From Takakia lepidozioides (lineage: Eukaryota; Plantae; Bryophyta): a stretch of 64,000 nt of DNA. The stretch covers positions 28,768,001-28,832,000 of the forward strand of contig CM060733.1 in assembly GCA_030704615.1 (NCBI GenBank), given 5' to 3'. The translations under genes were made by a program, and so were the position numbers. The notes under the pieces are model-generated. The model did no database searches and had not been told where the DNA came from. It saw only the letters and a program-made list of their open reading frames with translations. Positions 18,301-63,355 of this stretch are shown here, piece by piece. Position 1 is the stretch's first letter; the number at the start of each line of letters is the position of its first letter.

Positions 18301-21289
18301 CTCATCCAAAACAACAACAATCTCCCTTTCAAGAGTATCTCTTCCTGACTCAAAATAGACAGAGTTAGGAGCACAAATGGGGATAATAGAACTTTTCGCA
18401 AGCTCCTGAGCTTCCAGCATGTCTGGATTAACAACTGGGTTCTGCCCGAGACCATCATTTTCTAACTCCCTGAATGCTGACACAGACAGCACAATGTCCA
18501 GGTCTTCAGACTCATTCAAGCTTCCAGTATCAATAGAGGCTGTGGTATCTAGCACATCAGCAGCCTCTGTGCTTGGCATGCCCATATTTGTCACCTCTAT
18601 TGCTGATTCAGTGAGTGCCAAACCACCCACTGGCCTTGGCTCCAAGGACTGTTCCTTCTCAAATTGAAAGAAATCACCCTTTTGATGCTTCTGATCATCT
18701 GAGTCAGATGTCAGATCAACCAAGGACCCCTGCTTTACAGAACCCTCTGCTGAGTCTTGTTCCTTTTCTGCAACCACCTCGCCAACGGTCTCAACGAATG
18801 TTTCCGATCGGATAACTCCCTCGCCATCACGCTGCCTATGAGGGCTTTGCCCGACGTGAATAACCATTTCACCCTCGTCTTGTGTTTCCACCAATTCATT
18901 TCCCATCTTTTTGTCCAATAGACCGTTGCCACTGTCGTTCTCATCAAGCTCTTTTACTTCCATATCCTGCTGGTTCTCTTCCAACTCCACTGGACTATGA
19001 TGTTGTCCTTCATTCATTTCTTCAACCTGATCAGATGTTGCCACAATACCCTCAGCTTGTACGTCTTCAATTTTTTCTAGTATCTCTGTCTCCATGGATG
19101 TGGAAGGCAGGGGAGTGGAAGAGGGTGCTGACTCCCCACTTGCCCAATTATCCCTTTCAGGTTGTTCTAAGATAGGGGTGTGACTATCCAAGTCAATGTC
19201 CCTAACAAACTCAAAATTTCCAGCAGCAGCCATACTTCTATCTTTTCCATTACTCCGACAACCATCTTCACTTCCTTCAACCTCAGCAACTTCTGCTGCT
19301 GGGAAGTCACTTTCCTTGGCCTCAGCTATTTCCTCTTTCACACCTTTGAGCTTGAATGAGTCTTCATCTACAGTAAGCAGAACATTTCCACCAGCTTCAC
19401 GGCCCCCAACCAAGAGCTCTGCTGGCTCAAGAGCCACATCATGTCCTTTATCACTATCAACTGGATCTGCCTCTGGGGACTTGCAAAGTTCCTCATTCTC
19501 TCGTGGTGATGAAACAACTAAGTCTGGTTCCACAGCTTCCAAACAATTCACCCCAGTCCCTGAGACCACAACCGGCTCAATGGCCCCTGTTATAATACCA
19601 CATGCAAGTTGCTGTCCCTCCAACTCCTGATGATCCACACTGCTAGCATTTCCCTTAGTATCATTGCATGGCTTACTGTCCACATTATTGACAGTGATTT
19701 CTGTAGCATTGGGAGAAGCGGCCTGGAATTCCTTGTTGGCATCATGCCACTGTTCACCTTCTAAAAGTAATTCTGACCGACTTGGATCTAAAGATTCCTT
19801 AGAGTTCTCTGGGGCAACAGAGACAGATATGTCAGAGACTGCAGTATCTGAATTCTGTGTAGAGAGCTTGTTGGCAACGGATTTCAAGCCTTCGTCAGGA
19901 AGTCCATGATCAGTTGGACTACAAGGCACAGAGTCCTCGTGGCTGGAAGCTAACAAGGGCTCATTTGGTTGAGCTACAGCCACACTTTTCCCCGCCTGTT
20001 TGTTGACATGCGCCCTCTCAGCTTTTAATCTTTTGATCTTCACCTGAAGTGACCTGAATAACATGCCAACACGTTTTTTGGACCTTGAAAACATCTCATG
20101 CTGACAGAAGCACTAGTTAGAATTACATATGGATCCGAAAATTGCAGGCTGTCGTGCTATCCCAAGGGACAGCAAGACAACATCAATTCCTCGAAGTACA
20201 TCCAAAGTCCAAACATAGACCTACCTAATGACCTGAGTAGATCTAACATGACATACCCAATAGACCCGTCATAGCGCTCAAGTTCCCGCTTAAGGTGTGC
20301 TACTCTCAACTTGCGCAACTCTTCAAACCAGGGCATGCTGTTGCTCAACTCTTCATCCCTGAAAACACAAAAGAACACAAACGCACCAAAAGAAATCAAT
20401 AACAGTTGAGCCACTCCATGCTCTCTCCAGAGATGCCATCATATATTCTCTGATACAGGGCCTATAATCTAGATATGAGGATGATTCTACAAGGTTCTGG
20501 AAATCAAGAACGGTGGAAGTACCTGCTGATACTGCAGCTGCTGGTGCTGGCATACCGCCCTTTCAGAGCATCATACTTATGCTTGCATGCCTGTCAAAAG
20601 CCAACCAACACAATTGCTCAGAATGAGATTTGTCTTTCCTACCATACTACTGGTATGTCTGTGAAGAAACTAGTCAGCCTATCCTACTACACAACTCCTC
20701 TTTCAGAGAGAATCTAGAGGACATGGACCCTCTAATTATTATGGTATTGAGCTATAAGTTCAAGAAAACGAGAGATCGTAGTCCACACATAACGTCACCA
20801 AAGGAAGAATCTTCGGTCACTTAACGAGACATATCACGTAAATTCTATCTTCAAACGTGAAACCTAGACTCCAAACTCACCGTTCACTTCCAGCTCCTCT
20901 TTTCGACTTCATTTCGATTGAAATTCGCTTTACAAACTCATGTAAGATAGACCCACCTTTGGTTTTTCAAGGGGCCTGGCCATCCAAGGCAGGGGTGGAC
21001 TTCAGGATGTCAAACCCAGATCCCTGTAACATGAACTTGATAAAGGGGAAGAAGGGGGAAATAAGCTCCTTACTTCTTCAGAGAAATATAAGGGACAAAC
21101 TTTGAGAGAGATCGCTCGATCTTTGAGCTCTGAAGAGATGAGATTCCAATTGTTGGTTCCATGTCTTTTCACAGCACTGACCAGCAGCAATTCTTCACAG
21201 GTCCCCCAGCATCCGGCCCCCAATCCAGATGCCTCGGGCAGCTCTGGTGGTAGGGTGGCAGCCACGGCCAAGACTTCATGCTTCCCCAT
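15307..21289 (-). CDS. SANT/Myb-like plus bromodomain protein (plant DNA-binding bromodomain family)
   Basis: WGTCEELLLVSAVKRHGTNNWNLISSEL (SANT) and PWFEELRKLRVAHLKRELERYDGSIGSLQVKIKRL (coiled coil). A large acidic exon spans 16777-20053. The bromodomain is split by an intron (CAHKSACLFR...Q|DSRYDLLIRRHMDL...FFRDLLLIFNNALVYY). Confidence 0.9.
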
Positions 21290-22320: not shown

Positions 22321-23029
22321 TTGGTTGTTACAAAGGTGTCCACCTTCCTACCATAAAGCAATAGCTTTTCTGGGTCAAGTGACACCATAAGTTACGCTTG
22401 CTTTCGCCACGCATCCACCTGTAACTGGGTGTAATTTGAAAGAGGCAGAAAGTGCTCAGCAAAGTCAATCGCTTATTACCAAACTATAGCTCAATTGGTA
22501 TGTGAGGAGGTTAGGTAGCGCGTAAGCATGCTCACGTGAGCACAAGGGCAATTTCCACGAATTTCCACAGCGAAACGAAATTGACGAAACTAACAATTTT
22601 GCGAAACTAACACATAAAGAACAAGTAGCCCCTTCTAAGCGTGGGTTTTTCTCACGTTGTGCTCACACGACCCTTTTCATAACAGACATGAGAGTGGGCA
22701 GTGAGGCCTAAGCTTAAATTTAAGATCATCACCAATGGATAATTTCGCACGGCGAAACTTTGTACCAATCAGCCTGAGAAGAAATCACATTGTAGTTGAA
22801 ATGATGAATATGTCACTTTTAAAGGCCCTACCCATGTATATTTTTGTAGAACAAAACTCTCTCCCCTAACAACTAGTACAATTATATATTGAGATATGCA
22901 TTTGCAGTGCGAAACTCTGATCCCTGAAGAGAAGTTGGGTAGCGTGCGGTTAGGATGCTCACAAACAAAAAAATATGAAAAATATTCTTGAGATGTCCAG
23001 AGAAAATCGCACATGTTTTTTAACACAAG

Positions 23030-23943
23030 TTTTTGAACAAGAACAATGTCAGACATGAGTTTATTGTTGAGAAACTCTTTTGATACAGAAAAGCATTTCA
23101 ATTTCCTCGATTCATATCCCTTCATATTGTCTCAAAGCATATTGGTTTTTGAACAAATACACTGTCAGACGAGAGTTTTGTGTTGAAATACTTTTTTGTT
23201 ACGGCTAAGTAGTTCAAATCCCTCAGTTCATATCCCTCCATAAACATTTTCAGACAAGAGTTTCGTGTTAAGGAAATGATTCAGATTTTTGAATAAAACC
23301 GATGTTAGACAAGAGTTTTGTGTTGAGAAACTATTTTGTCACGGCAAAGAGTTCAAATCCCTCAATCCATATCCCTCCATATTTGTTTGAAAACATGCAC
23401 ATTTGTGAACAAAAACACTCTCAGAGAATAGTTTCGTGTTGAGAAATTCTTTTGTTATGGCGAAACAATTCAAATCTCTCAGTCCATGTCTCTTCATATT
23501 GTTCCAAAGCATGCAGGTTTTTGAGCAAAAACACTGTCAAAAAAAAAGTTTCGTATTGAGAAACTTTTTTGTTATGGCGAAGCAATTCAAATCTCCTAGT
23601 CTATGTCCCTCCATATTGGTTAAAAAACATGCAGGTTTTTGAACAAAAACACTGTTCCAGAAGAGTTTCGTATTGAGAAACTCTTTTGTTACGGCGAAGC
23701 AATTCAAATCTCTCAGTCCACGTCCGTCCATATTGGTTAAAAAACATGCAGGTTTTTGAACAAAAACACTGTCACAGAAGAGTTTCGTGTTGAGAAACTG
23801 TTTTGTATGACGAAACAATTCAAATCCCTGAGTCCATTCCCCTCTATATTGGTTCAAAAGCATGTAGGTTTTTCAACAAAAACATTGTCCCAGAAGAGTT
23901 TCGTATTGATAAACTCTTTTGTTACGGCGAAACAATTCAAATC
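23030..23943. repeat. AT-rich ~116-117-bp tandem array, left part (about 8 units)
   Basis: The unit aagagtttcgtgttgagaaactcttttgttacggcgaa...catgcaggtttttgaacaaaaacactgtc recurs at e.g. 23311, 23427, 23661, 23778 and 23894. Confidence 0.9.
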
Positions 23944-24630
23944 TGTCGTGCGCATACATATCGCTACACAATTACATCGCTGTCCAAAACCACACAACAC
24001 ATGTGCACCACACACTAGTATACCACTAGTCCAACCACCAGTCCAACCACTAGGCTACAACTAGTCAGTCACTAGGCTGCCACTATGCTGCCCACTATGG
24101 CAGTCACTAGTCCACACAATGGATAAAGAAGAAGAATACAAGCACGAGCTCACGAATCTGAAGCATAAACTCATGCATATATAACCTCATCACTCAAATA
24201 CAAGTCAAGCCAAGTGCACCCCACGCCATCGGGAATCCACACTACGGCGCCATAGCTAGGCGCGGTGAGGCTCAACTCGAGAAAGATGAGCCTTCCGCGC
24301 TTGCCGTGAAGATAACCACTCCAGGGCCTAAATCTGCCTTGACCCCCTGGATTGACACTTGGGCCAATCCCAAATGTCAATATGTAAAAGCTAGTTATTT
24401 CCTAGCTAGTTTCACACTAGTGGTAAAATAACTTGACAGCTGTCGTGCGCATACATATCGCTACACAACTACATCGCTATCCAAAACCACACAACACATG
24501 TGCACACCACACACTAGTATACCACTAGTCCAGCCATTAGTCCAACCACTAGGCTACAACTAGTCAGTCACTAGGCTGCCACTATGCTGCCCACTATGGC
24601 AGTCACTAGTCCATACAATCGCCCCCCTAG
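23944..24630 (-). repeat. A-B-gc-A terminal repeat block plus polypurine tract
   Basis: The A segment is duplicated at 23944-24120 and 24441-24619. The B/A junction reads ttgaca-gc-tgtcgt. On the minus strand the PPT ctaggggggcg (24620-24630) directly precedes at-TGT. Confidence 0.9.
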
Positions 24631-24869
24631 CTGGTGCTTAGGTCCCTCTAAGTCCAGGTAGCCACAAGATGTGATAGTGACCATAGCCTCACTAAGTCCT
24701 CCACCACTATCCCTACTACACTCAAACTCGATAGATCAAGAGGCCGGGTGCAAGAGTTGCCCCATCGTTAGTCGTCGTCTTGCAACCTGTGAACTTGAGC
24801 TTGGGATCTCATGTATTGACTCCTATGAGCTTGGCCTCCCATGTCTTGTTAGCTGCCTCCAGTCATGTC

Positions 24870-27800
24870 CACTGCCACTATCCCAAGCAGTGTGGACACA
24901 ACCAATCTCCGTCAGGAACCTTCTCAAGAGGTGGTGTCAAGCATCACATATGCCAACCCCTTGAGCATCGATCACACACCAGCATGGTGGCTGCCCCTTT
25001 GGCAGACCACAGAGCATGCACCTCAAACCTGCAGGTACCACTGCCAAGTTTGGGTCAACTCTGCCATCGACATTGGGAAGGTGACATGACGCACAATTAC
25101 GCACATGGTCCTTCCAAGTCATGCCATCCCGACCCTCTAAGATCAGGACCCTCGAGGGCAACACCTCTCGAACCCTCAGAATAACACGCCCTGCAGTAAC
25201 ATCCAGAGTCGTAGGAGCAGTCTGCTGCAAATAAACATAGTCACCAGGGCTAAACCTTCGAACCCCAGGACGATATCCTCCACCACGTATAGTGGCATAT
25301 CTCAACGTATCACGGTGTTGTGCAATGGCAAGGTTCTCAAAAGCCATGGGCATGACTTTCTTGAACAACCCTGCACGCTGATCACATGCACGTACCCACA
25401 CGTCCGGATCGTCAAGGTTAAGGACTTGAGCAGTGTCCCTACGAATGGCTGCAGGCAAATCCGGCTCTCAGCCAAAGAGAAGGAAATATGGTGAGAAGGA
25501 GGCAAGTGATGCTTGTTTGCTGAACCTGTAGCCCATGGCTAACCAATGAACCTGAATATCCCAATCTCCTAGGTGTCCCTTCTGCAAGCCATACTTGCGC
25601 AAACCTCTATTTACCGTTTGAACAACTCTCTCTGCTAAGCCATCGGCCTCAGGATGATTCCGAGAAGTGGTGCGGTGGTCTATCAAGGATTTATCACACA
25701 AAGCCTGAAACTCCCCCAAGAACTCTCTCCCTTGGTCCGTGAGTACCTCAGCTGGAGCACCAAATCGGCTAAGCACACGATCCAAGAATGCATACGCAGC
25801 CCCCTCACTAGCCTTATCAGGCAATGGAACCATTTCAATCCACTTGGAGAAGTGCTCCACCATCATCAACACATATCTGTGGTGGCGCATAGTCAGTGGC
25901 AACGGTCCTGCGAAGTCAAGACTCCACCTGTAGCCCAATCCCATGATTGGTAAAAGATGCAACTGTGGTGTAGGGGCGTTGAATGAAGCACGCACCCTGT
26001 CACACACCATGCACCTAGCCACGAACTATTGCACCTCTGTATGCATACCACGCCACCAATACTGCCCCTGCAGTAAACTGTGAGTGCGTCGCACTCCAAA
26101 ATGCCCCAACTCCTCATGGGCATGCCGCACTAACCGTGCACGCTGTGTGGGGTGAGGCACAATCCTCACCCGACCATCCTCCCACACTCGAAGTAGGTGT
26201 ATCCCCTCCCACTTGAACCTCTTGGCTCGTTGCAGGATCCGATCCCTCTCCCTGGCAGTCACAGTGGCTGTCGTGTCTCCCGTGCGGAGGTAGTCCAACA
26301 CAGCCGAATCCTCATGTATATCTCTGGCACCACCTGGCTCATCACTAGCCTCAGGGTCCTCAGACACTCCGTCTACAGTCATCCCTGTTGTAGGTCCAAC
26401 CTGACTTCCCGATGCCAAGATACACAAAAATGCAGATGCGTGCCATCCCGGCACCATCTCCTCGTCCGTCTCACCATGCCACCGAGCTCCAGTGTCATCT
26501 TGCTGGCTCATGCATGGATTGCGACTCAATCCATCCGCATCCCGATTGACCAAACCTGGTCGATGCACAACCTGAAAGTCATACTCCTGGAGTATGAGTG
26601 CCCACCGTGCAAGCTTCCCCGTAAGCTTGTCTGACTCCATCAACCACTTGAGTGGCTGGTGATCCCGTGACAAGGGTGAAAAGATTGCCGTATAGATAGC
26701 ACCTAAAGTGTGCCACGGCCCACACTGCAGCTAAGCACTCTCCCTCATATGAGCTGTACTTAGCCTCTGCAACATTGTTCGAGCGGCTAGCATAAGCCAC
26801 TACGAACTCTCTTCCCTCATCATCCACCTGTGTGAGCACCGCTCCAAGCCCCAGCATGCTCCAATCCGTATGCAGCTGAAAGGGACGCCCCCTGATAGGT
26901 CGTCTCAGGATAGGCGCCGAGGTCAACCTCGCCTTGAGCTCTTGAAAAGCTCGTTCCTGCTCATCTTCCCACTGCCACTCCTGGTCCACCTTGGTCAGCT
27001 TGGTTAGAGCCTTTGTAATGGTACTAAATCCCTTGACAAACCGTCTATAATAGTTTGCCAACCCCATGAAAGCTCGAACTCGGCTCACATCCGTGGGGCG
27101 TGGAATTTGTGCAATGGCCTCTACCTTAGTTTGTTGTACCCCCAATCATCCAGGATATATCATGTGACCCAGATACTCAATCTGGTTGTGGAAAAACTTG
27201 CACTTCCCCGGATGCAACTTCAATCCGTGTGCTCTCAAGCGCTCCAATACCACCTGAAGGTGTCTCTCATGCTCCTCCATCGTAACACTAAAGATGATGA
27301 TGTCATCTATGTAGCACCGAGCAAAGTCCACCCCTGCTAGAATCCTATCCATGACTCTCTGAAACTCTGCATGAGCATTCTTAAGCCCAAATGGTAAGAA
27401 CCGCCACTTATATAGGCAATCCTTGCCGTGCTCATTGATCCCCCAGAATGTCGTCTTCTGCTTGTCCGCCTCCTTGATTGGCAACTGGTGATATCCGGAT
27501 CGTAAATCCAAAGTGATAAAGGCCTTAGCATGCCCGATGGCATCAAAGATCTCCTCTGGTGTTGGCATGGCATACTTATCGGACTTGGTCTGACGATTTA
27601 CAGGCCGGTAATCACCGCACATACGTCTCTCCGTCCAATTGCCATAGACATCTTTCTTGGCTGGCATCACTGTGGCTGAAGCATACTCTCCACCAGAGAG
27701 CTCCACCAAACCTGCCTCCCAGAGATCTTGAGTTCTCATCTGAATCAAAGACCTCTCCATGTCACTGTATCTATAGGGTCTCCGAAAGATTGGCGTGTCA

Positions 27801-27880
27801 GTGGCCAACTCAATACAGATCTCTTGACCCTTCAGTGCTCCCAAGTCCTTCAAACTGAAGGCAAAGCAATTCATGTAAGC
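24870..27880 (-). pseudogene. pol RT - RNase H - integrase - PHD finger of family 1 (stops and frameshifts)
   Basis: [75 protein letters not shown], and a C-terminal CMLC...C..C...H..C...WLCPHC. Confidence 0.92.
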
Positions 27881-28012
27881 CCTCAGGAACCGCCGTATAC
27901 GTCGTCTCTCTCCTCCGGTGACAATGGGTCCAATGTCAGGCTCCCAATTATCCTCCGTAACTGCAACCTTAAGTCCAGTGGGCTTAGAGGTAGAGGACGC
28001 GTCCAGTGGTTG

Positions 28013-29470
28013 CTATGTTGCAACCTCTTGAGCAGTACTCCCTGCCTGCTCAGTCAATGACAAGGCCTCATCCTGCCCCATCATCTCATCCTTGAGGACC
28101 TCCTCAACCCGAGAAGAATCCCCAACCTCATCCATCACAGCCGCCTTGGCTGCCAACTCCCTCTGAACCTCGAGCACCTCCCACGTGTGCCATGGATGCA
28201 TGCACCTCGTGGTCCTCACATGCTCGCCCCCACTCACTGCCTGTACCGTCTCGGTAGGCAGAGAGACCATCGAGGGAAGTGTACTCCGCACTCTGCGTTG
28301 CTTAGCCAGAGCCAAGCTGATAATCCAGGTTAAGCAATTGAGATCCATTGCTTGCCCCAACACTTGACGACGTGATGCCTCAGAAAGAGACAACACCACC
28401 GTGGTACCAGTGGTAAAACCCATTGCCCGCTCACGCTCGTCAGCATTAGGCTCCACTAACTGCTGCAACTGAGCATCCCACAGGAGGCCAGGTCCACTAT
28501 CCCGGAAAGCATGCGATCCTGGGAAGCTGAGCAGTGTAGGTAATGCTGCTCGTGGTTGACCCACCTTGTTGACCACTGCCAAAGGCGAACGGTCATCGTG
28601 TCTCACACGCTGAGACTGCCTCCCTGTGTCCAGAATGTTATCCACTGTGAGATGTGCTGGCCGCTGCTCCCCATCAAATGCACGCTTGAGCAGTGCGGGT
28701 GGCATCAAGTTAGTCCACCATAGCCGTGGACGATGAGCCCGTGACCCCACTGTAGCTGCATCTAGCAACACTGCTGACCCAAGCCACGACTGGACTTGAT
28801 GCACACTGGCCATCACCCTGGCCCGAGAATCGCCCATCAGTGGCACATTCTCCAAGATGTATGCTGGAGATACAGCTTGATGAAGCTGCAAGTGACGCGA
28901 AACCCGCACCATCTCCCAAAACAGACCCGACCTCGAGTCTCGTAATCCATTGCCATGCCCGGCTGATGAATGCCCTTGGCAGGGCCAACCTGCCACTACC
29001 AGATCAATGGAGCCAACTCGCTCCAAATCCTGCGCCCCCAGTAACGAAATGTCTGCTGGCAAGGCCTGCTGATATCCACAAATTGCAGACACCGACAACA
29101 ACTCAGGGTACCGCTGAGCAACATGGCGAAGTGAAACGCGTCGTGCAGTCTCATCCCTCTCCACATACATGTAACGCCGAACTCGTACACCTGCCTGTAA
29201 CACAGCAGCCAATCCGGTGCTTATCCCACCAAACAAGTCCAGAAGACAAATGCCTTCATCCGGATACTGCCACACAATAGGTGTGGTGTCCAATGGAGAC
29301 AACTGAGGTGGTCCTGGTGCAATCCCCGCACTCTCCTCCTCTCCTGACGGTACAAAAGCCTCCACCCAGGCTTGTTGCATCCGTCGATCAGCATCCCGCT
29401 GCAAATCCTTGCTCGTGCCCCACAATGGAGTCTGAGCAACCATGGTAGGCAACTCCGCCATACCATACAT
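28013..29470 (-). CDS. Retrotransposon-encoded DNA (cytosine-5) methyltransferase, DNMT3-like
   Basis: Ordered C5-MTase motifs: I LDLFGGISTG, II YVERD, IV DLVVAGWPCQGHS, VI YILENV, VIII AHRPRLWWTNL, IX ERERAMGF, X RRQVLGQAMD. The frame is open across the whole domain. Confidence 0.92.
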   Translation of the reverse strand: MYGMAELPTMVAQTPLWGTSKDLQRDADRRMQQAWVEAFVPSGEEESAGIAPGPPQLSPLDTTPIVWQYPDEGICLLDLFGGISTGLAAVLQAGVRVRRYMYVERDETARRVSLRHVAQRYPELLSVSAICGYQQALPADISLLGAQDLERVGSIDLVVAGWPCQGHSSAGHGNGLRDSRSGLFWEMVRVSRHLQLHQAVSPAYILENVPLMGDSRARVMASVHQVQSWLGSAVLLDAATVGSRAHRPRLWWTNLMPPALLKRAFDGEQRPAHLTVDNILDTGRQSQRVRHDDRSPLAVVNKVGQPRAALPTLLSFPGSHAFRDSGPGLLWDAQLQQLVEPNADERERAMGFTTGTTVVLSLSEASRRQVLGQAMDLNCLTWIISLALAKQRRVRSTLPSMVSLPTETVQAVSGGEHVRTTRCMHPWHTWEVLEVQRELAAKAAVMDEVGDSSRVEEVLKDEMMGQDEALSLTEQAGSTAQEVAT

Positions 29471-29476
29471 GTCATC

Positions 29477-30465
29477 CTACTCTCCCGGAGGTGGTACATC
29501 CTTTGAATGAGCGTTTCCCTCGAGCAACTCTCTAGGCCAACTCACTGCCGTTGTGAATGCTGCTAGTGTCGGCATCTTGCCTCGCTGGGCAACCGCAACT
29601 CCTCCTATGAACGTCACAGGAAGCTGCACACGCCGGCCCTCCCCTGACTGCCATGTAGGCCTATAGGAACCTGACTCCTCCCAAAAATCCAGGGTGAAGC
29701 CCATGGGGTACAACATTGCCCCACCAACCAGGACATCGTATGAGACCACGTCTGTCACAATGGCCTTGGCTCGCATCACTGAGCCATCTGTAGGGATCCG
29801 GCCGTAGTCTGATAGCCAACTCACGCCGTGTCATGCCCCGAGCTTGCTCCGATCCTCCCAGAGACGTCTGTATCTGGAAAGGACAAGGCTCCATATCCGC
29901 CTCCGTGAGGCCCAAGCCTGCAATAGCAGCTCTGCCCAGCATCAGTGGCTGAGCTCTCGAGTCCAACAAGACCCGCAGTGGCCGGTACCTCTTGCCTGCC
30001 GGTCCACTCAAACAGAAAATGCTATCCTGGTTGTCTAACATGACAACTCCAGGTGTCACCATGGCGCGCTCAATGGCTGGCTTAGCTGGCAGCTCCATCA
30101 ACCTGGCAGCTGCAGCTTGCCATGGCACCGCCGTGGCAGTCTTGACCCTCAAATCCGAGGATCCCTCCGGCACTACACCTCCCAGTATCTCCGCAGAAGA
30201 TGAAGTAACCTCCCGACTCTCACAGAGTGTAGCTGCCAGCCTGAACACCTCAGCTGGTCTTACCCCCGGCGTCGCAATTATGGTAGCCGAGAACAATGGA
30301 GCCTGGCACACAGATGTGGCCGCTCCTAGCAGAAAGGCGTAAATAGTTGTGGATTGCGCATTTGCTGCAAATCACACCAACTATCAAACTCTTGGATAAA
30401 ATCATCCAACTCGATGGTGCCCACCACCCCAGAGTACCTTCGTGGCCCCTTGGTAGCTCCATACA
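29477..30465 (-). pseudogene. Aspartic protease plus short gag N-terminal remnant of family 1
   Basis: LRVLLDSRAQPLMLG (DSG>DSR) and YDVLVGGAML. A capsid-like start, RYSGVVGTIELDDFIQEFDSWCDLQQ, lies at ~30340-30440 and then jumps to the pre-PR linker. Confidence 0.7.
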
Positions 30466-31329
30466 TCTCCTCCATTGTGTCCCACAACAATGACAAAGAA
30501 CAACTTGCACCGCCGGTATGAGTCCTCCTGATTCACAATCCGAATCAGAACCTTCCGTAGAAGACACAGGAGGTGAAGGTGGCCTAAACCGTACACCTTG
30601 TCTCGTGTACCCACTAGTATCGCTAGTGCTTGAACCGGCACTGTCCCCAGCGACTAATGGCACCTCTGTGTTGACACTCAACCGGTCATGAACATGTCCT
30701 TAACCCCTTCTCCACAAGGTAACCGGGTAGAGAACCTGTTGCGGCTTATGGTTTGGAATACTAAGTTCTTAACATAGCCTACACCTGTACCTGCATCCAC
30801 CGCAAGCACTCCTATGGTTGGCTGGTCATCACCTCCAACCTCACCACAGGAGAAACAATGATGGTCTGGCTAGTCATCACCCCAGCATCGACAACATGCT
30901 CTAGGACTGGCCGGTGATCAAATCCAGACCAATCACCTATAAAAACAAGCGCCCACACAAAACTAGCATGGCGCACAGTCAAGCATGCAGGTATGGAGGG
31001 GATCCAAACACAAGAAATCAGAACGACAACTCCCCCACACCAAAAACAACTCCACGGTGTTGCTCCTGCAAGGACACCCCAGCCCAAACCCGAACTGACT
31101 CTTGCCTCCACCTGCGGAAAGGTCTTGGCCTAATGAGAGGGTGGAAACTACAAGGAAGAGAAGCTAAAGCAATGCCTAACCCCAGCATGCCCTCATCCCA
31201 ACACTCTTCCTCTCCTCTATTCCCTCACTTGCATGACCATGGGAATATCATGAAGATACTCCTCAAACCGCCCTCCACGAGCTTCAAAATTCGGCCTTCA
31301 AGACCACATGCCAGTCCTTAGGCAGTCCA

Positions 31330-31790
31330 CCAGTGCCTCCACGAGTCAGCACAGGCCGTCCACAGGTCAACACGAGCCACCAGACCAGCACAGGCCCACA
31401 CAGCTCACTGGTCACAGCCATCACAGTCCCACAGGCCACTGGGCACAGCCCGTCACAGCCCGTCACAGCCCCACAGGCCACAGGGCATAGCCCGCCACAG
31501 CCTGTCACAGCCCCGCACAGCCCGTCACAGCTCGCCACAGCCTGTCACAGCCCCGCACAGCCCGTCACAGCCCCACAGGCCACTGGGCACAGCCTGTCAC
31601 AGCCCCTCACAGCCCGTCACAGCTCGCCACAGCCCCTCACAGCCCCAAAGGCCTCAGGCACGGCCTGACATAGCCCCTCACAGCCCGTCACAGCCCCAAA
31701 GGCCTCAGGCACGGCTTGTCACAGCCCCGCACAGCCCGTCACAGCCCCAAAAGGCCACCGGCACAGCCCGTCACAGCCCCATCCATGGCC
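31330..31790. repeat. Short-unit (~10-11 bp) degenerate tandem repeat in the retroelement leader
   Basis: Many copies of (gt)cacagccc / cacaggcc. Confidence 0.85.
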
Positions 31791-33315
31791 GCTCTGGCAG
31801 TTTAGCCATTTCTCCAAGGGGTTTAGCCACGCCAAGCTAGGGTTTGTATCTCTTGGACTCTAGGCTTCTTTCCACCGAGCTATGGCGGCTGTGAGGAAAT
31901 CAGCAAGGTATTCTTGCTCTTTCGGCTCCCACACACCACCATAATAGCCCTAAGCCATGAGGTGGTTGCCACAAACCAAGCCTTCTTTCTCACTTAGCCT
32001 CCCCAAACACGCCACTAAACTCAATGGCAAACAACCAAGCCCTGCTGGTTCCCAGCCCTTGTGATCACTCATTCAAGCACTCTCATTGGCCATAGCATCT
32101 ATCTTAGAGCCTATTCCAACCCCCTACACCTGCTGCTTCAAGAGTTGCGCTCCCTTCAAGCTTGAAGTTGAAACCCCAACTCACATAGGCCCTACAAGTG
32201 CTTTTCTTTCACTCCAAGTGGAAACCAGCCCTAGACCTTCCATTCTAGCTCTCTAAAGCTTGAAAACAAGAGCCTCAATGGCCTGAAGGCATGCTCCACA
32301 CATGCCCCACTCTCACCATAAGAGAATCAGCTCCTTTGCTTCATTTCTTGCACCCACAAACCTGAAAATACAAGCTTCAGCAGGCTGAAAGCATGCTCCA
32401 CATGCCCTACAGGGAAACCAGCCCCTTCCTTCCTTTCTTGCACTCCCACACCTGAAAGTGCAAGCCTTCACCAGGCTGATAGCATGCTCCACACATGCAT
32501 TGCCCTCACATAAGGGAAGTCAGCCCTTCCCTCTTCCTTGCTTGCCCTCCAAGCTTGAAGATGGAAGCTTCAATGAGCTGAATACATGCTCCACACATGC
32601 AACCTCTTCACACAAGAGATATCAGCCCCCTATCTTGGCTCCTTGGCTCCTTGATGCTCTCTAAGACAAGACTAAGCACTCCACAGCCTTTGCCAAGCTC
32701 CTGAAACCCTAAGGCTTACATTTCCAGCCACAAGACACTTCTCTTGTGGTGCAAGAGCTCTTCTTCCAAGCTCTGAAACCCTAGGTGCACATTCCATGGC
32801 CTTGCCGCACCTCTTAGCTCCTGTTCCAGCCCTGCTCTTGCCATGACAAGAGCCCTCTCAATGCTAAAGCTCGAGATTGAAACCCAATCTCACCATACTC
32901 CACAAAGTGCACTGATTTGCCCCAAGCCAAATCAGCCCTTTTGCTTGGTCTTGCAATCCTTCACACAATGAAAGCTCGCATTCCCAAGTCCAGTTCTCAG
33001 CTTTGCCACCAAAGCCACTATAACCTGCTCTTGACTGGTCCTCTTCCCAATCGTGCTTGCTCATGCATGTACACAATCTGAAACCATCAAGGTGCTCTGG
33101 AATTACCTGCAGCATGGTGTTTTCATCTCTGAAGCTGAAGATCGAATGCCAAGGTCTACCACCTCGTAACCCACATCGCCTCCGCTTCTAACAACCAAGA
33201 GCTCCACGGTGCTCCTTGCATAACAACTTGGTTTCTCTCATTCTCAAGCAAAAACCACAAGTGCTACAACTAACTCGCATCTGACACTCACAGATACGAG
33301 CTGATCTTTCTCGAG

Positions 33316-33632
33316 TGATAAAGAAGAAGAATACAAGCACGAGCTCACAAATCTGAAGCATAAACTCATGCATATATAACCTCATCACTCAAATATAAGT
33401 CAAGCCAAGTGCACCCCACGCCATGGGGAATCCACACTACGGCGCCATAGCTAGGCGCGGTGAGGCTCAACTCGAGAAAGATGAGCCTTCCGCGCTTGCC
33501 GTGAAGATAACCACTCCAGGGCCTAAATCTGCCTTGACTCCTGGATTGACACTTGGGCCAATCCCAAATGTCAATATGTAAAAGCTAGCTATTTCCTAGC
33601 TAGTTTCACACTAGTGATAAAATAACTTGACA
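33316..33632 (-). repeat. 5' half-LTR (segment B only) of family 1
   Basis: About 6-7 differences from 24122-24438. No A segment lies beyond it; it ends ...aacttgaca followed by the TSD. Confidence 0.92.
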
Positions 33633-34290
33633 AATCTCTTAGTCCACGTCCGTCCATATTGGTTCAAAAGCATGCAGGTTTTTGAACAAAAACATTGTCA
33701 TAGAAGAGTTTCGTGTTGAGAAACTCTTTTGTATGGTGAAACAATTCAAATCCCTCAGTCCATTCCCCTCTATATTGATTCAAAAGCATGTAGGAAGAGT
33801 TTCGTGTTGAGAAACTCTTTTGTTATGGCGAAGCAATTTATATCTTTCAGTCCATGTCCATCCATATTGGTTCAAAACATGCAGGTTTTAGAACAAAAAC
33901 ACTGTTAGAGAAGAGTTTCTGTTGAGAAACTCTTTTGCTACGCCGAACTAGCAGTTCATATCTCTGAGTTCATATCCCTCCATATTGGTTCTAAGCATGC
34001 AGATTCTTAAACCATAACACTGTCAAACAAGAGTTTCGTATTGAGAAACTCTTTTTTTATGGCAAAAGAGTTCAAATCCCTTAGTTCGTATCCATCCATA
34101 TTGTTTCAAAAGTATGCAGATAAATACACAACCACAGTCGGATAAGAGTTTCGTGTTGAGAAACTCTTTTGTTATGGCGAAGTATTTCAAATCTTTTAGC
34201 TCATATCCCTCCATATTTGTTCAAATGCATGTAGTGCTTTGAACAAATTCACTGACAGACAAAAGTTTCGTGTTGAGAAACCTTTTTCAA
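33633..34290. repeat. ~117-bp tandem array, right part (about 6 units)
   Basis: Resumes in register (aatctcttagtccacgtccgtccatatt...) with the unit interrupted at 23943. Confidence 0.9.
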
Positions 34291-35686
34291 TCTTTGAATT
34301 TATTATTAAAAATTGTCGACATTGATGTTATCAAAGCGAAACAATATCAGACCTTCTCAGATTCTGTGATAAAATTCACGGCACAAGAAGGAATATCCTG
34401 GTTTTATTGATGATCTAAATGACAGATGTACATGTTAACTTTGTTGTTAAAGGAAATTTCAGTAAGCAAAAGTATCATCATTTGTTATTATGTCTACATT
34501 GTCCTGTGAATCATTTCAATCAATATCGCTATATTTTCTGCTTACTGTGTGTTTGGTGTTATTTTCGGACAAGGGAACAAATACATTTTCCGAGTTCTAT
34601 TTAGCATCACATTTCAATAACATTAGAATTGTATTTTGTATCAACTGCAACTATTTTGTTTTCGTTGCATGAAATTATTGCGATATTTTTTCTTTTAAGG
34701 CTCTCTTTTCTCAATGCGAAACCCACCGCTGCTTAGATTTGTGCCCATATCACCAAGTATTTCTCAATGCGAAATTCGCCGCCATCGCTATAGGTTTAGG
34801 GTTTCTGGCTACACTATTGAAGGTTTCGCCTCACTGGATTGGTGCAGATGTACCATATAAATGCACCAGTCCTCTATATCCACTTATGATTTTATTCCAT
34901 TATGAAAACATATAACTCCTATGACCGAGGTTAAAAAATCATAAAACTCCCATGACCGTGGGTTGTGCTAACGCGCGCGTGAGCATGCTCACCGCTGTGC
35001 TCACGCGATACCAACCCCCGTATAGAACACTATTTTAACTAATTCTGGACTTTTGTTTGGTCCAGAAATAATACAAGATATATGAATAATTATAATCTAT
35101 AATAGAAATAAAGAGATATATCTATAATTATTTGACTATTTGTGCACTATATAACAACAAATTATGTAATCCTCCACACATTCTACGCAAAAATACAAGT
35201 ATGTATTGTGGTCTTAGATGAACATCCACTGCCAAGTTAGCCCCAATGCCGCCTAGGGTCAGGGTGCGGACCCTACCTGCGGTAGACCCATCCTCGTGGC
35301 AAACCCACCGGGGCCCGGTCATGGAGGTCATGGATCGCAGCGGGGCCACCTAGGGGCGTCCGACGTCCGTGCATGGGCATGCTACCTGGCTCACACGTGA
35401 GCCTTAAACTCCCAATTATTCAACAATGAGAAGCATCTCCCCCCCTATTTCATTAACTATCACCAACCTGGGCCCACCTCTTCACATGCCCTCGTTCTCC
35501 TCACTCCACAATCCTTGCCCGCCCCTCCCACACCACTAAACCACCTATGCAGGGCTTTTGGCGGGCCTCCTAGAGCCATAACCCGCCTATAGAGGTCTTG
35601 GGATAGGCCTAGGGAGAACCAAACACACCTAGGCAAGTCTTGGGCCGGATAAGACGCACGGATGGGCCCGGCGGTCAGGGTTGGAC

Positions 35687-38213: not shown

Positions 38214-41200
38214 CTACAGAAAGAAAAGGGTAAAAGCAGCAACCATCGAAACCAGCAGAGGCGCGCCCACTCTGAATGTAGCTGAACTTCTGTTTGGTAG
38301 AGTCGGATAGTCCTGAGGATCAGGAAGCACACAATCATCCCCATTGAAGTAGACACGACGGGGAAAAGCCCACCCATCGCTGAATGTAAATGATGAATCC
38401 TTCCTGAACAGTAGTTCAGACTGAACATTTCCATCTCGGCCGGCGTGCATGAGCCAGTCATTGTAATACTTTATACCCCAGAAAACAGCCGAATCATCTG
38501 CACCAACAAACAAAATTACAGATGTCCAAATATAATCAGCTCTAGCGGTTGAAGATTCTTATTTCAGCCATCCAGTCGTACACTTACATATTCATCTCCT
38601 CCTAATCAACATAACACCTGGCTTTGCTGAAATATCTTGAGGTGCTCAAAATGTGAGTACGTACAGACGAAATGACTTGTCTACTCCATGTTGTGGCCTA
38701 CAAGCAAACTGCACGCGCTAGCCGTTGGTGCATGGTCCCAGATCAAAATGTTTTTTATTTTGCTTTGCAGAAAATTTTGGCACTCCTGTGATGCCTGTGT
38801 GCAAATGCATATTATACATTTCAGTTATAATTGCACACAAAAGAATTGAATGACTGCAACTAGCTTTTCGGCCCTAGATTTCCTTCAAAGTAGACTTTTA
38901 TCAAAGATTACTAACTCAGGTGCTTCCGGCTTTACGATTTTAGGAAAAGTAGGACACTCACTTCTGTGTGACCCGTATGGATGCAATAGCTTGTAGCTGA
39001 AGCTGAAAGCCTCTGTGAAGTTGTCAAAGTTTGGGTGCTGAAGTGCTAGAGTCCACCGTGTGAAATTTCGGGACAAGTCACGATTTGTGATGGTGACTTT
39101 GACTCGCCAATACTCCTTATAATTAGTCTTAACATGCCAGTGAATTTTCACAGGACACATATCCCTGGTACAAAACATTGTATCAGGCTGGTTGACATCT
39201 CCGGTGCTTATAGCAGGAATATGAGAATACCGCGTTCTCCTGCAATCCATCTTTCCATTGTGTTAGTACGCAAAGACATTAGCCACACAGTGAGGATCTA
39301 GCTAGCTCGAGTGTCTTAGGTTTAAAGTATAATGAGATGTAACATGCTGAAGTCTTGTCTTAGACTACAAACAACTTTCCAAGAAGTTTGAAATTGTTTG
39401 CAGTCCCTTATTTGAAGAATGTGCAAGCGTGGTGCTTGGCATAGCTAGGCCACTTTCAACATACTACACTCCCAAGGTGCTAGCTGACTGAATTTGGGAG
39501 CTCCCCAAAATTAGTGTTGTTTCGACTTAAGCCCCCTGATACATTTAAGTCTTCCATAAATATTTGCACTCTAAGCACACTGACCAGTTAAAACGAAATT
39601 GGCTACTGTGTTTTGTTGAACGTGAACAAAAATGATAAAAAAGTGAAGGCTAGAGGATCTCTCATCTGTTTGGAACAAGAAATCATTGAGGCCGGGCTCT
39701 TACGGATCCAAGCAGGCCTCTAAGTTGGAATCGGCAGTTCTCAAAGCTGTTGAGGTAGATGCACAGGCGCATGCACATTCCGCGCAAGGGATAATGGTGT
39801 CGTTGTAGAAGGTTGACAAGGACACACAGCATGTTGGTGCCTTCTGCGCCAAGTACTGGGAATAGGTGCATGTAACATTCCAAGTCACTGCACCCGTGAA
39901 GCAAATACAGTTCACACACGTTCTTAACCTCTTATCTGATTTTGCTGACAGCTACCTGCAGTGGACGGACTAACATTCCTAATCTTGAGGATAGATGTCA
40001 GGCATGCTGCTACTCCCAGGACATTGCACGCTTTTGGATATACCACGGGGATAAGAGCCACCAGTGGCCGAGCACATAACAAGATCCATAATGCAACGGA
40101 TGAACAACAACTTTTCTTTTCCGCGGATTTAATTTGTCTAACTCACTGAATGAAGATTGTGGTACATGTCGATCATCCCTTCAGCGCATGCACTGTGTCA
40201 GAAGATAGAAAGAGACAGAATACATTTCTCAGCATATAATTACTCGAACCCCGTTTAGATTGGACAAGGAGAGGGAACGCACTGAAAGCTTGGGTGAATC
40301 TTCTCCCGTCTTCCGAAGGAAACAAGCTTGCCTTCACCTTCATAGCAGGTCCGCAGGTGTATCCAGGTCCAGGCGGCGCTCGAAGCGTGAAATTCTTCGG
40401 TAAGACAACTGTGGTGTTTGTGTTCCCTGACTTCCCCACCTTTATCTGGAAAGCAGAGAGTGCAGTCGCAGGATCTTGAGCATAGGAAGATAGCACCCCA
40501 CCTCGACAGCAGTTTGCAACTTGTTGAGTATAAGAAACATCTGGAAGCAGATCTTCAACAGCCGGATTGGGAGCACAACAGTGTGGTACAGGTGAAACGT
40601 GAAATTGAGAGCAGTCGCTCTGGAACGTAGTTTGTGCTCCAACCATGGTCCAGATAACCTCCTTCCTTGCCCAATGCCAGCCAACTGTCCAGCCAGGGGC
40701 GGAAATATGTCGATATTTTTGCCAGTTGAATATTGTAACCATAGCCTGCACGGGATCAGTGTCCATCGATCATCAGTACAGTTGCTTATCATCTCACTTG
40801 CTCTGGAAAATTTAACAGCATTTTTAGCGAAAACAGTTGACCACCTTCCCAAGAGGAGGTGGCGGATCAGACATTCCATGCATCTTCAATTTTGACAAAG
40901 GTTTTTTATCTACTTTCTTCCTTTGACACCTTTAGGACCAGCCATATTTCAGACGTGCGGCTTCATTACTCTGAAAAATGAAAGTGCTCACTGTCCAATA
41001 GAACGTAGAGAAAAGAATTTGTACAATGTAGCCATCGTCAGTCCATTCCGTGATATCCCACTTGATGGTAATATTCCCATTTGGATCCAAAAGATCAAAA
41101 GCCTCTGCACATGCGCAAAGTTGGCACAGGATAGATGAGTTTTAGATTTGAAGTGAGCAACCACAAAATCAAATGGAATGATAAGATTTGGAGAGACTCA

Positions 41201-53328: not shown

Positions 53329-56300
53329 TGTCGTGCACCTAAGCATCGTGCCACAACATACATCGTTGTCCATCACACAATCTAAGCACACAATCCTAGA
53401 AAGCTATACCACAATGATAATGAAAGTGAACATAATGGAAACCCTCCACTCATGAATCCACTCAATCACATAAAGTAAGTCAAGCCAATGGCACCCTTGC
53501 TAAGGGAATCCACCCTACAAAGCACTCACCACACTCCCTCTCAATACCTAGAGCTATGGAGGTGAGAGAGGCTCATGGAGGCTCAACTACAAGAAGATGG
53601 GCCTCCTCCATCCTCACAAGGGATATAAATATCTAAAATGTCCTAGTTAACTAGAAGTAGGTAATTCTAGATAGCCATGACAGCTGTCATGCACCTAAGC
53701 ATCGTGCCACAACATACAAGCACACAATCCTAGAAAGCTATACCACAATCGCCCCCCTAGCTGGTGATTAGGTCCCTCTAACACCGGATAGCTGACAAAT
53801 ATCCATCCCAATAAGATCATCGCGTGGTCATCAATCGCCCATTGGCAAACTACTATCGATGGCGTGTCAAGGGATTTAACAGCATTGCAAAGGCTCTTAC
53901 CAAGTTGACCAAGGTGGGTCAAGAGTGGCAGTGGGAGGAAGAGCAAGAGGAAGCATTTGAGGAACTCAAGGCTCGATTGACTTCTGCACCTATTCTGAGG
54001 CGGCCTTTCCAGCTACATACAGATTGGAGTATTCTGGGGATTGGAGCAATGCTCACACAGGTGGATGATGAGGGAAGAGAGTTCATAGTGGCATATGCTA
54101 GCCGCTCGAACAATGATGCCGAGGCGAAGTATAGTTCCTATGAAGGGGAGTGTCTGGCTGCAGTATGGACAGTGGCACATTTTAGATGCTACCTCTATGG
54201 CAATCTCTTCACTCTTGTCACGGATCACCAACCATTGAAGTGGTTGATGGAGTCAGACAAGCTTACAGGGAAGCTTGCACAGTGGGCACTTATGCTTCAA
54301 GAGTACGACTTCTAGGTGGTACATCGAGCCGGAATAGTCAACCGGGATGCGGATGGATTGAGTCGCAATCCATGCACAAGTGAGCTTGATGATACAGGAG
54401 CTCGTTGGCATGGTGAGACGGACAAGGAGATGGTGCCAGAATGACACACATCTGTCTTTTTATGCATTCTAGCAATGGGAGCTCAAGCTGGTCCATCCCA
54501 TGTGATTGGTCATAGAGATAGTGTGCATGACGATCCAGAGATCAGTGAGGAGTTTGGTGGTGCTAAGGATGTACATGAAGATGCAGCAATGTTGGCCTAC
54601 CTTCGTACTGGAGAGACAGCAGCCAGTGTGACTGCTAAGGAGAGAGATCGGATCCTACAACGAGCCAAAAGGTTTAAGTGGGAGGGGACTCACCTACTCC
54701 GAGTATGGGAGGATGGACGAGTGAGGATTGTGCCTCATCCAACACAGCGAGCGCGATTGGTACGCCATGCCCATGAGGAGTTGGGACATTTTGGGGTGCG
54801 ACGCACTCATAGCTTGCTGCAATGACAGTATTGGTGGCGGGGCATGCACACGGATGTGCAACAGTTAGTGGCAAGGTGCATGGTGTGTGATAGAGTGCGG
54901 GCTTTTTTCAATGCACCTACTCCACAATTGCATCATTTCCCCATTATGGGTTTGGGCTATCGTTGGAGTCTTGACTTTGCAGGCCCATTGCCACTGACGA
55001 TTCGCCATAACAATTATGTGCTGGTGATGGTGGAACATTTCTCCAAATGGATTGAACTAGTGGCATTGCCTGATAAGGCAAGTGAGGGGGCTGCGTATGC
55101 ATTCTTAGATCGAGTGCTTAGCCAATTTGGTGCTCCAGCCGAGATACTCACGGACCAGGGGAGAGAGTTCTTGGGGGAATTTCAGACTTTGTGTAAGCAA
55201 GCCTTGATAGATCACCGCACTACTTCTCGGGATCATCCCGAGGCTGATGGCTTGGCGGAGAGAGTTGTTCAGACAGTCAAGAGAGGTTTGCGCAAGTACG
55301 GTTTGCAGAAGGGACACCTAGGAGATTGGGACCTTCAGCTGCCTTGGCTAGCTATGGGCTATAGGTTCAGCAAACAAGCTTCGCTTGCCTCTTTCTCACC
55401 TTACTTTCTTCTCTTCAGCCGAGAGCCAGATTTGCCTGCATCTATTTGCAGGGAGACTGCAGTAGTCCTCAACCTTGATGATCCGGATGTGTGGACACAA
55501 GCATGTGCCCAACGGACAGAGTTGTTCAAGAGAGTCATGCCTATGGCTTTTGAGAACCTTGTTATTGCCCAACACCGAGACACATTGAGGTATGTCACTA
55601 TACGTGGAGGGAGGTATCGGCCAAGTGTTCGGCGTTTCCATCCTGGGGACTATGTGTATCTGCAGCAGACATCGCCTACGACATTGGATGTCACAGCAGG
55701 TCGTGTGATTCTAAGGGTCCGGGAGGTGTTGCCTTCAAGAGTGTTGATTCTGGAGGGTCGAGATGGCATGGTATGGAAGGACCATGTGCGCAATTGTGTG
55801 CCATGTCACCTTCCACATGTGGATGGGATGATAGATCCCAACCTTGCAGTGGTACCTGCAGGGTTGCATTGCATGCTATGTGGGCATGCTGGTGGTGTCG
55901 CGACCATGTTGGTGTGTGACAAATGCTCAAGGGGGTGGCACATGGAATGCTTGACACCGCCACTTGAGGAGGTTCCTAGTGGAGAATGGTTGTGTCCACG
56001 ATGCCTTGGATAGAGGTAGTGGGGCATGACAGTGGTGAGGTTGACAAGTGATCCAAGGTCTAGCTAACGGGAGTTCAATGCCATGGACACCCAATTGAAG
56101 CCATGAAAGCACGAACTCTGCTCACATCTATGGGGCGTGGATTGCATGCAATGGCCTCCACCTTTGTCTATTGAACACCCAATCCTCCAGGGTATATCAT
56201 GTGGCCCAGATACTCAATCTGATTGTGGAAGAACTTGCACTTTCCAGCGTGCAGTTTCAACCCGTGCGTTCTCAAGCGCTCAAACACCATCTGAAGGTGT

Positions 56301-62748: not shown

Positions 62749-63289
62749 TGTCGTGCGCATACATATCGCTACACAACTACATCGCTGTCCAAAACCACAC
62801 AACACATGTGCACACCACACACTAGTATACCACTAGTCCACCACTAGTCCAGCCACTAGTCCAACCACTAGGCTACAACAAGTCAGTCACTAGGCTGCCA
62901 TTATGCTGCCCACTATGGCAGTCACTAGTCCACACAATAGTTGTAGCACTTGTGGTTTCGAGTGATAAAGAAGAAGAATACAAGCACAAGCTCATGCGAG
63001 CTCACAAAGCTGAAGCATAAACTCATGCATATATAACCTCATCACTCAAATACAAGTCAAGCCAAGTGCACCCCACGCCATGGGGAATCCACACTACGGC
63101 GCCATAGCTAGGCGCGGTGAGGCTCAACTCGAGAAAGATGAGCCTTCCGCGCTTGCCGTGAAGATAACAACTCCAGGGCCTAAATCTGCCTTGACCCCTG
63201 GATTGACACTTGGGCCAATCCCAAATGTCAATATGTAAAAGCTAGCTATTTCCTAGCTAGTTTCACACTAGTGGTAAAATAACTTGACA
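62749..63289 (-). mobile_element. Solo permuted LTR (A-B) of family 1, inserted in the chromovirus gag
   Basis: Matches 23944-24438. TSD TGCC at 62745-62748 and 63290-63293. Removing it restores the gag start MGSGKPKRKQNG from the ATG at 63302. Confidence 0.93.
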
Positions 63290-63343: not shown

Positions 63344-63355
63344 GCTCTGATACCA
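63344..63355 (-). promoter_or_regulatory. Primer-binding site complementary to initiator tRNA-Met
   Basis: Minus strand reads TGGTATCAGAGC, 2 nt from the LTR end. Confidence 0.92.

What the first reader, a model, noticed from the sequence alone, without database searches (positions are those of the whole stretch)
33252..33316. No tRNA primer-binding site; an RNA hairpin sits where the PBS should be
Seen: after the ...TTTATCA end, the sense strand reads CTCGAGAAAGATC-AGCTCGTATCTG-TGAGTGT-CAGATGCGAGTT-AGTTGTAGCACTTGTGGTTT. There is no TGG-initiated PBS, unlike the Met PBS at 63344. The 12-bp stem (33272-33302) pairs fully only on the sense strand, using two G:U pairs. Inference: a structured leader used for tRNA-independent priming, analogous to but different from Tf1-type self-priming.
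Basis: partly seen in the sequence, partly recalled or inferred. Interest (0 to 1): 0.72.

Follow-up and report, generated by a model that had tools for sequence, protein, structure and literature searches.

The report
Hidden self-primer site beside leader hairpin
The primer site of this moss/liverwort-type jumping gene is not missing: the 12 bases before the hairpin match a stretch inside its own end repeat, so it likely primes its copying with the start of its own RNA, as yeast Tf1 does, and the hairpin is a family-specific extra.

Summary
The sequence, the 12-pair hairpin (33272-33302) and the lack of a TGG site are confirmed. The reading is not: a PBS exists. The 12 nt between repeat end and hairpin (33304-33315) are the exact reverse complement of 33471-33482 inside the element's own 5' repeat (0 of 20,000 shuffles). 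The match changes in step across four sequence types from metagenome relatives, at the same place in the repeat. That is the Tf1 self-priming signature, so 'different from Tf1' fails. The hairpin is absent from typical relatives, and one of its two G:U pairs is A-U in most copies. It is likely the tip of a longer stem-loop that can mask the PBS; a solo copy holds an inverted 21-nt leader copy ending at the hairpin's foot. The element is a Ty3/gypsy with DNA methyltransferase, DDE integrase and split repeats (A...B-A-B, 4-bp TSD), a layout noted for KnitGypsy-Dnmt3 (PMC5890265). Its integration ends lie inside the reverse-transcribed LTR. No RNA start was measured. The scan found the same self-primed, split-repeat lineage before in other genomes.

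The parts
33316..33632 (-). 5' repeat A1 (starts TGTCA, ends TTTATCA); left integration end of the element
   Evidence: 98% identical to A2 and 95% to the solo copy; TSD AATC at 33633-33636 and 23940-23943
33471..33482 (-). Predicted self-primer, likely the 5' end of the RNA; complementarity reaches 33486 in copies with the common allele at 33303
   Evidence: exact complement of the PBS, 0 of 20,000 shuffles; same place in relatives; allele table. RNA start inferred, not measured
33304..33315 (-). Self-priming PBS, CTCGAGAAAGAT, directly after the repeat end
   Evidence: no variant row listed for these positions among the 40 rows shown (8 rows not shown)
33272..33302 (-). The reported 12-pair leader hairpin; family-specific, downstream of the PBS
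   Evidence: mean pair probability 0.85-0.98 in 12 of 12 folds; absent from typical relatives
33243..33257 (-). Anti-PBS arm: can pair with the PBS and close a long stem-loop around the hairpin
   Evidence: fold; duplex -11.5 kcal/mol, 0 of 94 control windows and 1 of 300 shuffles as good
33252..33272 (-). 21-nt leader stretch that recurs, inverted, in the solo junction
28013..29476 (-). pol piece with C5 cytosine methyltransferase domain
   Evidence: PF00145, E 5e-12; relatives in Marchantia polymorpha 56-66% identical
25468..28012 (-). pol pieces: reverse transcriptase, RNase H, DDE integrase; broken by stops and a frame change
   Evidence: RVT_1, RT_RNaseH, Integrase_H2C2, rve
24619..24628 (-). 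Polypurine tract, directly followed by repeat B1
   Evidence: same tract in family 2 and in relatives
24441..24618 (-). Repeat B1
   Evidence: 96% identical to B2
24435..24444 (.). Palindrome GACA-GC-TGTC joining B1 to A2: the two integration ends back to back with 2 nt between
   Evidence: alone it is within chance (2 matches, 2.66 expected) but it sits at the same joint in family 2 and in relatives
24120..24438 (-). Repeat A2
23944..24119 (-). Repeat B2 (ends GACA); right integration end
62749..63289 (-). Solo A-junction-B copy of the same family, TSD TGCC
62938..62962 (-). Junction insert of the solo: first 4 PBS bases plus the inverted 21-nt leader copy
53329..53758 (-). Family 2 3' end: PPT-B1-GC-A2-B2, with a candidate self-primer at 53587-53598 about 33 nt after a TATA-like box; its leader is outside the window
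   Evidence: RT 87% identical to family 1

Best explanation
33304-33315 is a primer-binding site complementary to a stretch inside the element's own 5' repeat, so reverse transcription is likely primed, Tf1-style, by the first 11-16 nt of the element's RNA, and the hairpin is a family-specific leader structure next to it, not the primer. Shown: the complementarity, its fixed position and its covariation. Inferred: RNA starts at or a few bases before 33482; its 5' end folds onto the PBS; RT/RNase H cuts after 33471 to free a 3'-OH (as established for Tf1/Tf2); minus strong-stop DNA jumps to A2; the plus strand starts at the PPT, so the reverse-transcribed LTR is B-GC-A. Its two ends are then joined (A|B), and integrase likely uses the GACA-GC-TGTC site inside the left LTR, giving A...B-A-B with a 4-bp TSD. 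The hairpin with the anti-PBS arm likely forms a competing fold that masks the PBS and can stall RT, which would explain the leader copy in the solo junction.
For: 12 of 12 Watson-Crick pairs starting at the first base after the repeat; 0 of 20,000 dinucleotide shuffles reach 12. In 26 metagenome loci with a defined repeat end, the best match falls at the homologous site in 20 (160 nt from the end in 19, 113 nt in the shorter repeat of L075; 155 in the window), with 10 or more of 12 pairs in 13 of those 20. Four different PBS types each match their own repeat; cognate duplexes -16.6, -14.8, -7.9, -12.8 kcal/mol, and in every row the cognate is the strongest. L066/L068 and L022 carry two-sided changes against L009. 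A TATA-like box lies about 30 nt upstream in the relatives and in family 2. Primer nt 1-9 pair with the PBS at probability 0.52-1.0 in 10 of 12 folds of the predicted RNA. This matches the definition in PMC4600332 and PMC5341516 (passages). Split repeats with matching 4-bp TSDs: window twice; 9 of 12 loci with both ends exact, 2 with 3 of 4, 1 none. Junctions with PBS remnants (solo; L012) show that A|B is a join of RT ends.
Against: No RNA 5' end was seen: X14 laid 0 reads and contigs cannot show starts. The TATA box of family 1 itself is weak. Six of 26 loci lack the match at the homologous site (L015, L018, L019, L021, L036, L039, L041 minus ties; decayed, deleted or interrupted) and several others have only 8-9 pairs, not above shuffles. 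One non-cognate pair is strong (L009 primer with L066 PBS, -12.1). In free folds the last 3 primer bases do not pair with the PBS (probability 0.03 or less), and in 2 of 12 folds the anti-PBS arm wins; forcing all 12 pairs cost 5.8 kcal/mol in one fold. Only one of the two flanking duplexes of the Tf1 'pretzel' is predicted. Covariation may partly reflect the PBS being recopied from the primer each cycle. The relatives are mostly one family from a few metagenomes.
Confidence: 0.85

Rival explanations
1. Fold-back priming from the leader (closest to the first reader): the RNA is cut in the anti-PBS arm near 33250-33252, and the new 3' end, already paired with the PBS, primes minus-strand synthesis, as the main route or as a second one.
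For: The anti-PBS duplex is strong in this copy. Read on the minus strand, the solo junction is 21 nt of sense leader followed by repeat A, the order expected of a primer left on the minus strand; it starts at the hairpin's foot and ends in the arm.
Against: One event. The register is off by about 4 nt. The same junction arises if the plus-strand end, which carries PBS sequence, lands on the anti-PBS arm and copies to the hairpin, with no new cut needed. The arm is not significant in most relatives (5 of 20 have 5% or fewer shuffles as good). It does not explain the covarying repeat-PBS match. Other junctions are clean or carry PBS remnants.
Confidence: 0.1
2. A host tRNA fragment or other small RNA primes at this site.
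For: Half-tRNA priming exists in bryophyte and other plant copia lineages (PMC6317226 passages). No eukaryotic tRNA set could be searched here.
Against: The PBS differs among four types and each matches its own repeat, which one fixed host RNA cannot do. No TGG. Rfam gives no tRNA-like hit in 32900-33700. The same paper finds half-tRNAs only in Ty1/copia.
Confidence: 0.03
3. The hairpin is a chance or decayed feature with no function; only the PBS matters.
For: 24 equally stable 31-nt hairpins on this strand of the window; absent from most relatives, and an unrelated insert sits at the same place in L066/L052; a variant pair at 33295/33296 (3-23% of depth) breaks one pair.
Against: The common allele at 33278 restores a Watson-Crick pair, and changes at 33283 and 33291 have similar depth (10-35% and 8-32%), which would turn G-C into A-U if linked (linkage not shown). 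The solo's insert stops at the stem's outermost pair. This rival is compatible with the best explanation; the confidence refers to the hairpin alone.
Confidence: 0.4

Closest known systems
Tf1/Tf2 of Schizosaccharomyces pombe and the Tf1/sushi group, including plant Tcn1 (PMC4600332, PMC5341516, PMC10085805, PMC6317226; passages read)
   Same: Ty3/gypsy; no tRNA PBS; PBS just after the 5' repeat complementary to a site in R.
   Different: No chromodomain found (PHD finger after integrase in family 2; no PF00385 among 63 long relatives); carries a cytosine methyltransferase; repeats are split; the PBS-downstream sequence folds on itself rather than on the LTR.
KnitGypsy-Dnmt3 of Klebsormidium nitens (de Mendoza et al. 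2018, PMC5890265; passages and part 3 of 7 of the text read, supplements not seen)
   Same: Gypsy pol with a DNMT domain; the Fig. 4 legend says its repeats are arranged as in DIRS (A-coding-B-A-B).
   Different: The parts I read do not describe priming, TSDs or the internal integration site. No named Klebsormidium protein appeared, so direct kinship is untested.
PAT/Ngaro-type tyrosine-recombinase retrotransposons with split direct repeats (layout from PMC5890265 Fig. 1 legend; names recalled)
   Same: A...B-A-B repeat order and a B/A joint as the insertion site.
   Different: This element has a DDE integrase (rve), a PPT, TG...CA ends and 4-bp TSDs; no tyrosine recombinase domain was hit in the ORFs scanned.

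Membership tests
Tf1-type self-priming (mechanism) | PBS directly after the 5' LTR, complementary to a site inside that LTR | tested here: met
   12 of 12 pairs, 0 of 20,000 shuffles; covaries across four types
Tf1-type self-priming (mechanism) | The complementary site is the 5' end of the RNA | tested here: inconclusive
   TATA-like box about 30 nt upstream in relatives and family 2; no RNA reads laid
Tf1-type self-priming (mechanism) | Three-duplex 'pretzel' (PMC10085805) | tested here: inconclusive
   central duplex and a U5-side duplex predicted; the downstream sequence forms the local hairpin instead
Tf1-type self-priming (mechanism) | Cleavage of the primer by RT/RNase H | not testable with these tools
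   needs biochemistry or particle RNA
Tf1/sushi or Tcn1 chromoviruses (clade) | Chromodomain at the integrase C-terminus | tested here: not met
   PHD, no chromodomain, at E up to 1; none listed in 63 relatives
Tf1/sushi or Tcn1 chromoviruses (clade) | RT tree placement | not tested
   no named reference RTs of these clades were at hand; best solved-structure hit is Ty3 RT
tRNA-primed LTR retrotransposon | TGG-initiated PBS complementary to a tRNA 3' end | tested here: not met
   sequence; 26 relatives also lack it
tRNA-primed LTR retrotransposon | PBS complementary to a half-tRNA | not testable with these tools
   no eukaryotic tRNA set; window has no tRNA gene
KnitGypsy-Dnmt3-like elements | DNMT domain in Gypsy pol | tested here: met
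   52 of 57 loci with enough upstream DNA carry it
KnitGypsy-Dnmt3-like elements | A-coding-B-A-B repeats | tested here: met
KnitGypsy-Dnmt3-like elements | Common descent with the Klebsormidium element; Dnmt3 class | not tested
   no named Klebsormidium sequence returned; no tree built
Phygy (REXdb) | Insertion preference NCGN (PMC6317226) | tested here: not met
   none of the TSDs read (AATC, TGCC, AAGG, CACA, TGTT, TACA, CATA, ATTA, TGTG) fits
Tyrosine-recombinase split-repeat elements | Tyrosine recombinase, no DDE integrase | tested here: not met
   rve and H2C2 present, no recombinase hit among the 25 ORFs scanned

The most novel reading that the evidence does not exclude
This lineage has moved its integration ends into the middle of the LTR, so the ends made by reverse transcription are buried in the A|B junction and need not be exact. 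That slack lets the leader stem-loop act as a second, fold-back primer beside the Tf1-type one, and the solo junction at 62938-62962 is a fossil of such an event.
Probability: 0.12. Interest if true: 0.8.

Novelty: new variant of a known kind. Interest (0 to 1): 0.48.

Why it matters
The priming mechanism is known, but the plant survey I read (PMC6317226 passages) predicts it among Ty3/gypsy lineages for the Tcn1 chromoviruses; here it appears in a lineage without a chromodomain, with a methyltransferase and split repeats. Fixing the PBS and PPT defines the true reverse-transcribed LTR (B-GC-A) and shows that integration ends lie inside it, which departs from the rule that integrase works on the ends of linear cDNA. 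Junctions of such elements keep a record of RT slips that normal elements lose. Close relatives in Marchantia polymorpha make both points testable in a laboratory plant. LTR finders that expect two whole LTRs would likely miss these elements.

Tried and rejected
No whole genome is held for this window. Viral contigs: no relatives. No RNA holder listed for the stretch; raw RNA run X14 laid 0 reads, which is no test. Contigs were too short to list junction variants, so how often junctions carry leader sequence is unknown; depth in the junction bin can come from leader contigs alone. Family 2's leader lies outside the window, so its predicted PBS could not be checked. ARAGORN found no tRNA; Rfam gave one chance hit, E 3.2. 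An unanchored scan for 9-12-nt inverted matches in 21 loci gave many chance hits, so only the test anchored at the repeat end counts. A conserved PBS-masking arm was considered and not supported in relatives. Leader folds of 26 loci gave z from -2.13 to +1.12 against -2.89 for the window. Symmetric cutting of a two-LTR circle was considered; it predicts A-B-A...B forms, yet none of 24 loci with a 5' end (20 distinct flanks) has B before A1. Literature: searches found no paper describing priming or integration of this lineage; two searches returned 0 papers; subscription journals and Repbase were not searched.

Full report
Setting. The window is plant DNA packed with nested retrotransposons. 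The finding lies at the 5' end of a minus-strand Ty3/gypsy element, 23944-33632, flanked by a 4-bp duplication (AATC) in a 117-bp satellite. Its pol, in pieces, holds a C5 methyltransferase, RT, RNase H and a DDE integrase; a second family with 87% identical RT ends its integrase with a PHD finger. Named relatives are from liverworts, Sphagnum and Closterium. No genome is held, so other copies came from 80 metagenome loci (the best 80 of 304) and from contigs of public runs.

The observation. The quoted sequence is right and has no TGG near the repeat end. The stem 33272-33302 folds at -16.4 kcal/mol, better on the sense strand, and stays formed in all 12 longer folds. It is one of 24 such loci on this strand: notable beside a repeat end, not exceptional. 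In contigs of runs X1, X2 and X5, 84-97% of depth at 33278 has the base that makes the U:G pair a U-A pair. Changes at 33283 and 33291 have similar depth and would be compensatory if linked; changes at 33295/33296 break one pair (depth is a rough measure, 8 rows not shown).

The missed PBS. The 12 nt between the repeat end and the hairpin (33304-33315) are the exact reverse complement of 33471-33482, 155 nt inside the same repeat; 0 of 20,000 shuffles match as well. The same site is in A2 and in the solo. With the common allele at 33303 (57-79% of depth) the match runs to 16 nt and takes 3 bases from the hairpin's 5' arm. Of 80 loci, 26 had a definable end of the 5' repeat; the rest were too short, deleted or too divergent. 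In 20 of the 26 the best match falls at the homologous place, 13 of them with 10 or more of 12 pairs; the others are decayed or interrupted. The PBS comes in four types (window, L009, L066, L075) and each is matched by its own repeat; L022 shows two further paired changes at positions 13-14. A TATA-like box lies about 30 nt upstream in the relatives and family 2, weakly in family 1. Passages of PMC4600332 and PMC5341516 define Tf1/Tf2 self-priming by this arrangement. The 'pretzel' of PMC10085805 is only partly predicted: central and U5-side duplexes form, and the latter competes for the first 3 PBS bases. The RNA start and the cleavage are inferred.

The hairpin. Aligned leaders show it as an insert: L009, L017 and L074 have none, and L066/L052 have an unrelated insert of about 60 nt at that place (5 loci aligned). 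Leader folds of 26 loci are not unusual. In the window the PBS has a second partner, 33243-33257, which closes a long stem-loop around the hairpin (0 of 94 control windows, 1 of 300 shuffles). This arm is significant in only 5 of 20 relatives. So the hairpin is best read as the tip of a family-specific fold that competes with primer binding.

The solo junction. The solo at 62749-63289 joins A to B through the first 4 PBS bases and an exact inverted copy of 33252-33272. The copy begins in the anti-PBS arm and stops at the stem's outermost pair. The simplest reading (inference): a plus-strand end carrying PBS sequence paired with the arm, RT copied the leader back to the hairpin and stalled, and the end was joined to B. 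Fold-back priming from a cut leader gives the same letters; both need a slip of about 4 nt.

Repeat layout. The order is A1-PBS-pol-PPT-B1-GC-A2-B2. PPT and PBS define the reverse-transcribed LTR as B-GC-A, but the TSD-flanked ends are the start of A and the end of B. Family 2 and loci L009, L025/28/32, L026, L053, L060, L066/68, L071/72 and L075/76 show the same 3' end. Others are A...B, such as L017, L022, L034, L036 and L052. Of 12 loci with both ends, 9 have exact 4-bp TSDs. A|B junctions are mostly clean; L012 keeps 9 PBS bases. Integrase therefore likely acts at the joint inside the LTR of an end-joined intermediate. No 5' end is preceded by B (0 of 24 loci), which a symmetric two-LTR circle does not explain; a polar step, such as the plus strand jumping from the right end to the left end, would, but this is untested.

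Known and new. Self-priming is known from Tf1/sushi and predicted for plant Tcn1 (PMC6317226 passages). The split layout is noted in a figure legend for KnitGypsy-Dnmt3 (PMC5890265; supplements not seen and may bear on this). It works like Tf1 but fails the chromodomain test for the clade. Nine searches found no description of priming or integration in this lineage. Earlier scan notes reached the same reading in other genomes; I looked at them after searches had shown it here, and they are not independent support.

Verdict. Real hairpin, wrong role. The element is likely self-primed in the Tf1 manner (0.85). New variant of a known kind; the interest lies in the split-repeat integration and in the junction fossil more than in the hairpin.

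Noticed in passing
window 48441-48460 (-): 18 of 20 match to the leader 20-mer, downstream of the integrase of an unrelated Ty3/gypsy element (RT 38% identical); 0 of 100 shuffles gave such matches. Unexplained.
   Followed up: partly
window 53842-56030: Family 2 has an internal inversion covering RNase H, integrase and PHD relative to its RT.
   Followed up: no
window 57495-58207 and 63358-64000: A tRNA-type Ty3/gypsy element (TGG site at 63344-63355) whose LTR ends in GTGCACGACA, the same letters as the end of repeat B in family 2; RT only 41-42% identical. It is inserted in family 2 and itself carries the solo.
   Followed up: partly
window 15307-20112 (-): A 1180-codon open frame with no Pfam hit next to a 375-codon frame with a bromodomain.
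   Followed up: no
window 22950-23943 and 33633-34300: 117-bp tandem satellite into which the element inserted.
   Followed up: no
window 31400-31820 and 32220-32630: 10-bp tandem array and about 100-bp repeats in the long region between leader and pol.
   Followed up: no
L009, L017, L074 and related loci, repeat A about 150-180: A second copy of the PBS sequence lies just upstream of the predicted primer, forming an inverted repeat with it.
   Followed up: no
window 40173-40769 (-): COBRA-like host gene exon, PF04833.
   Followed up: no
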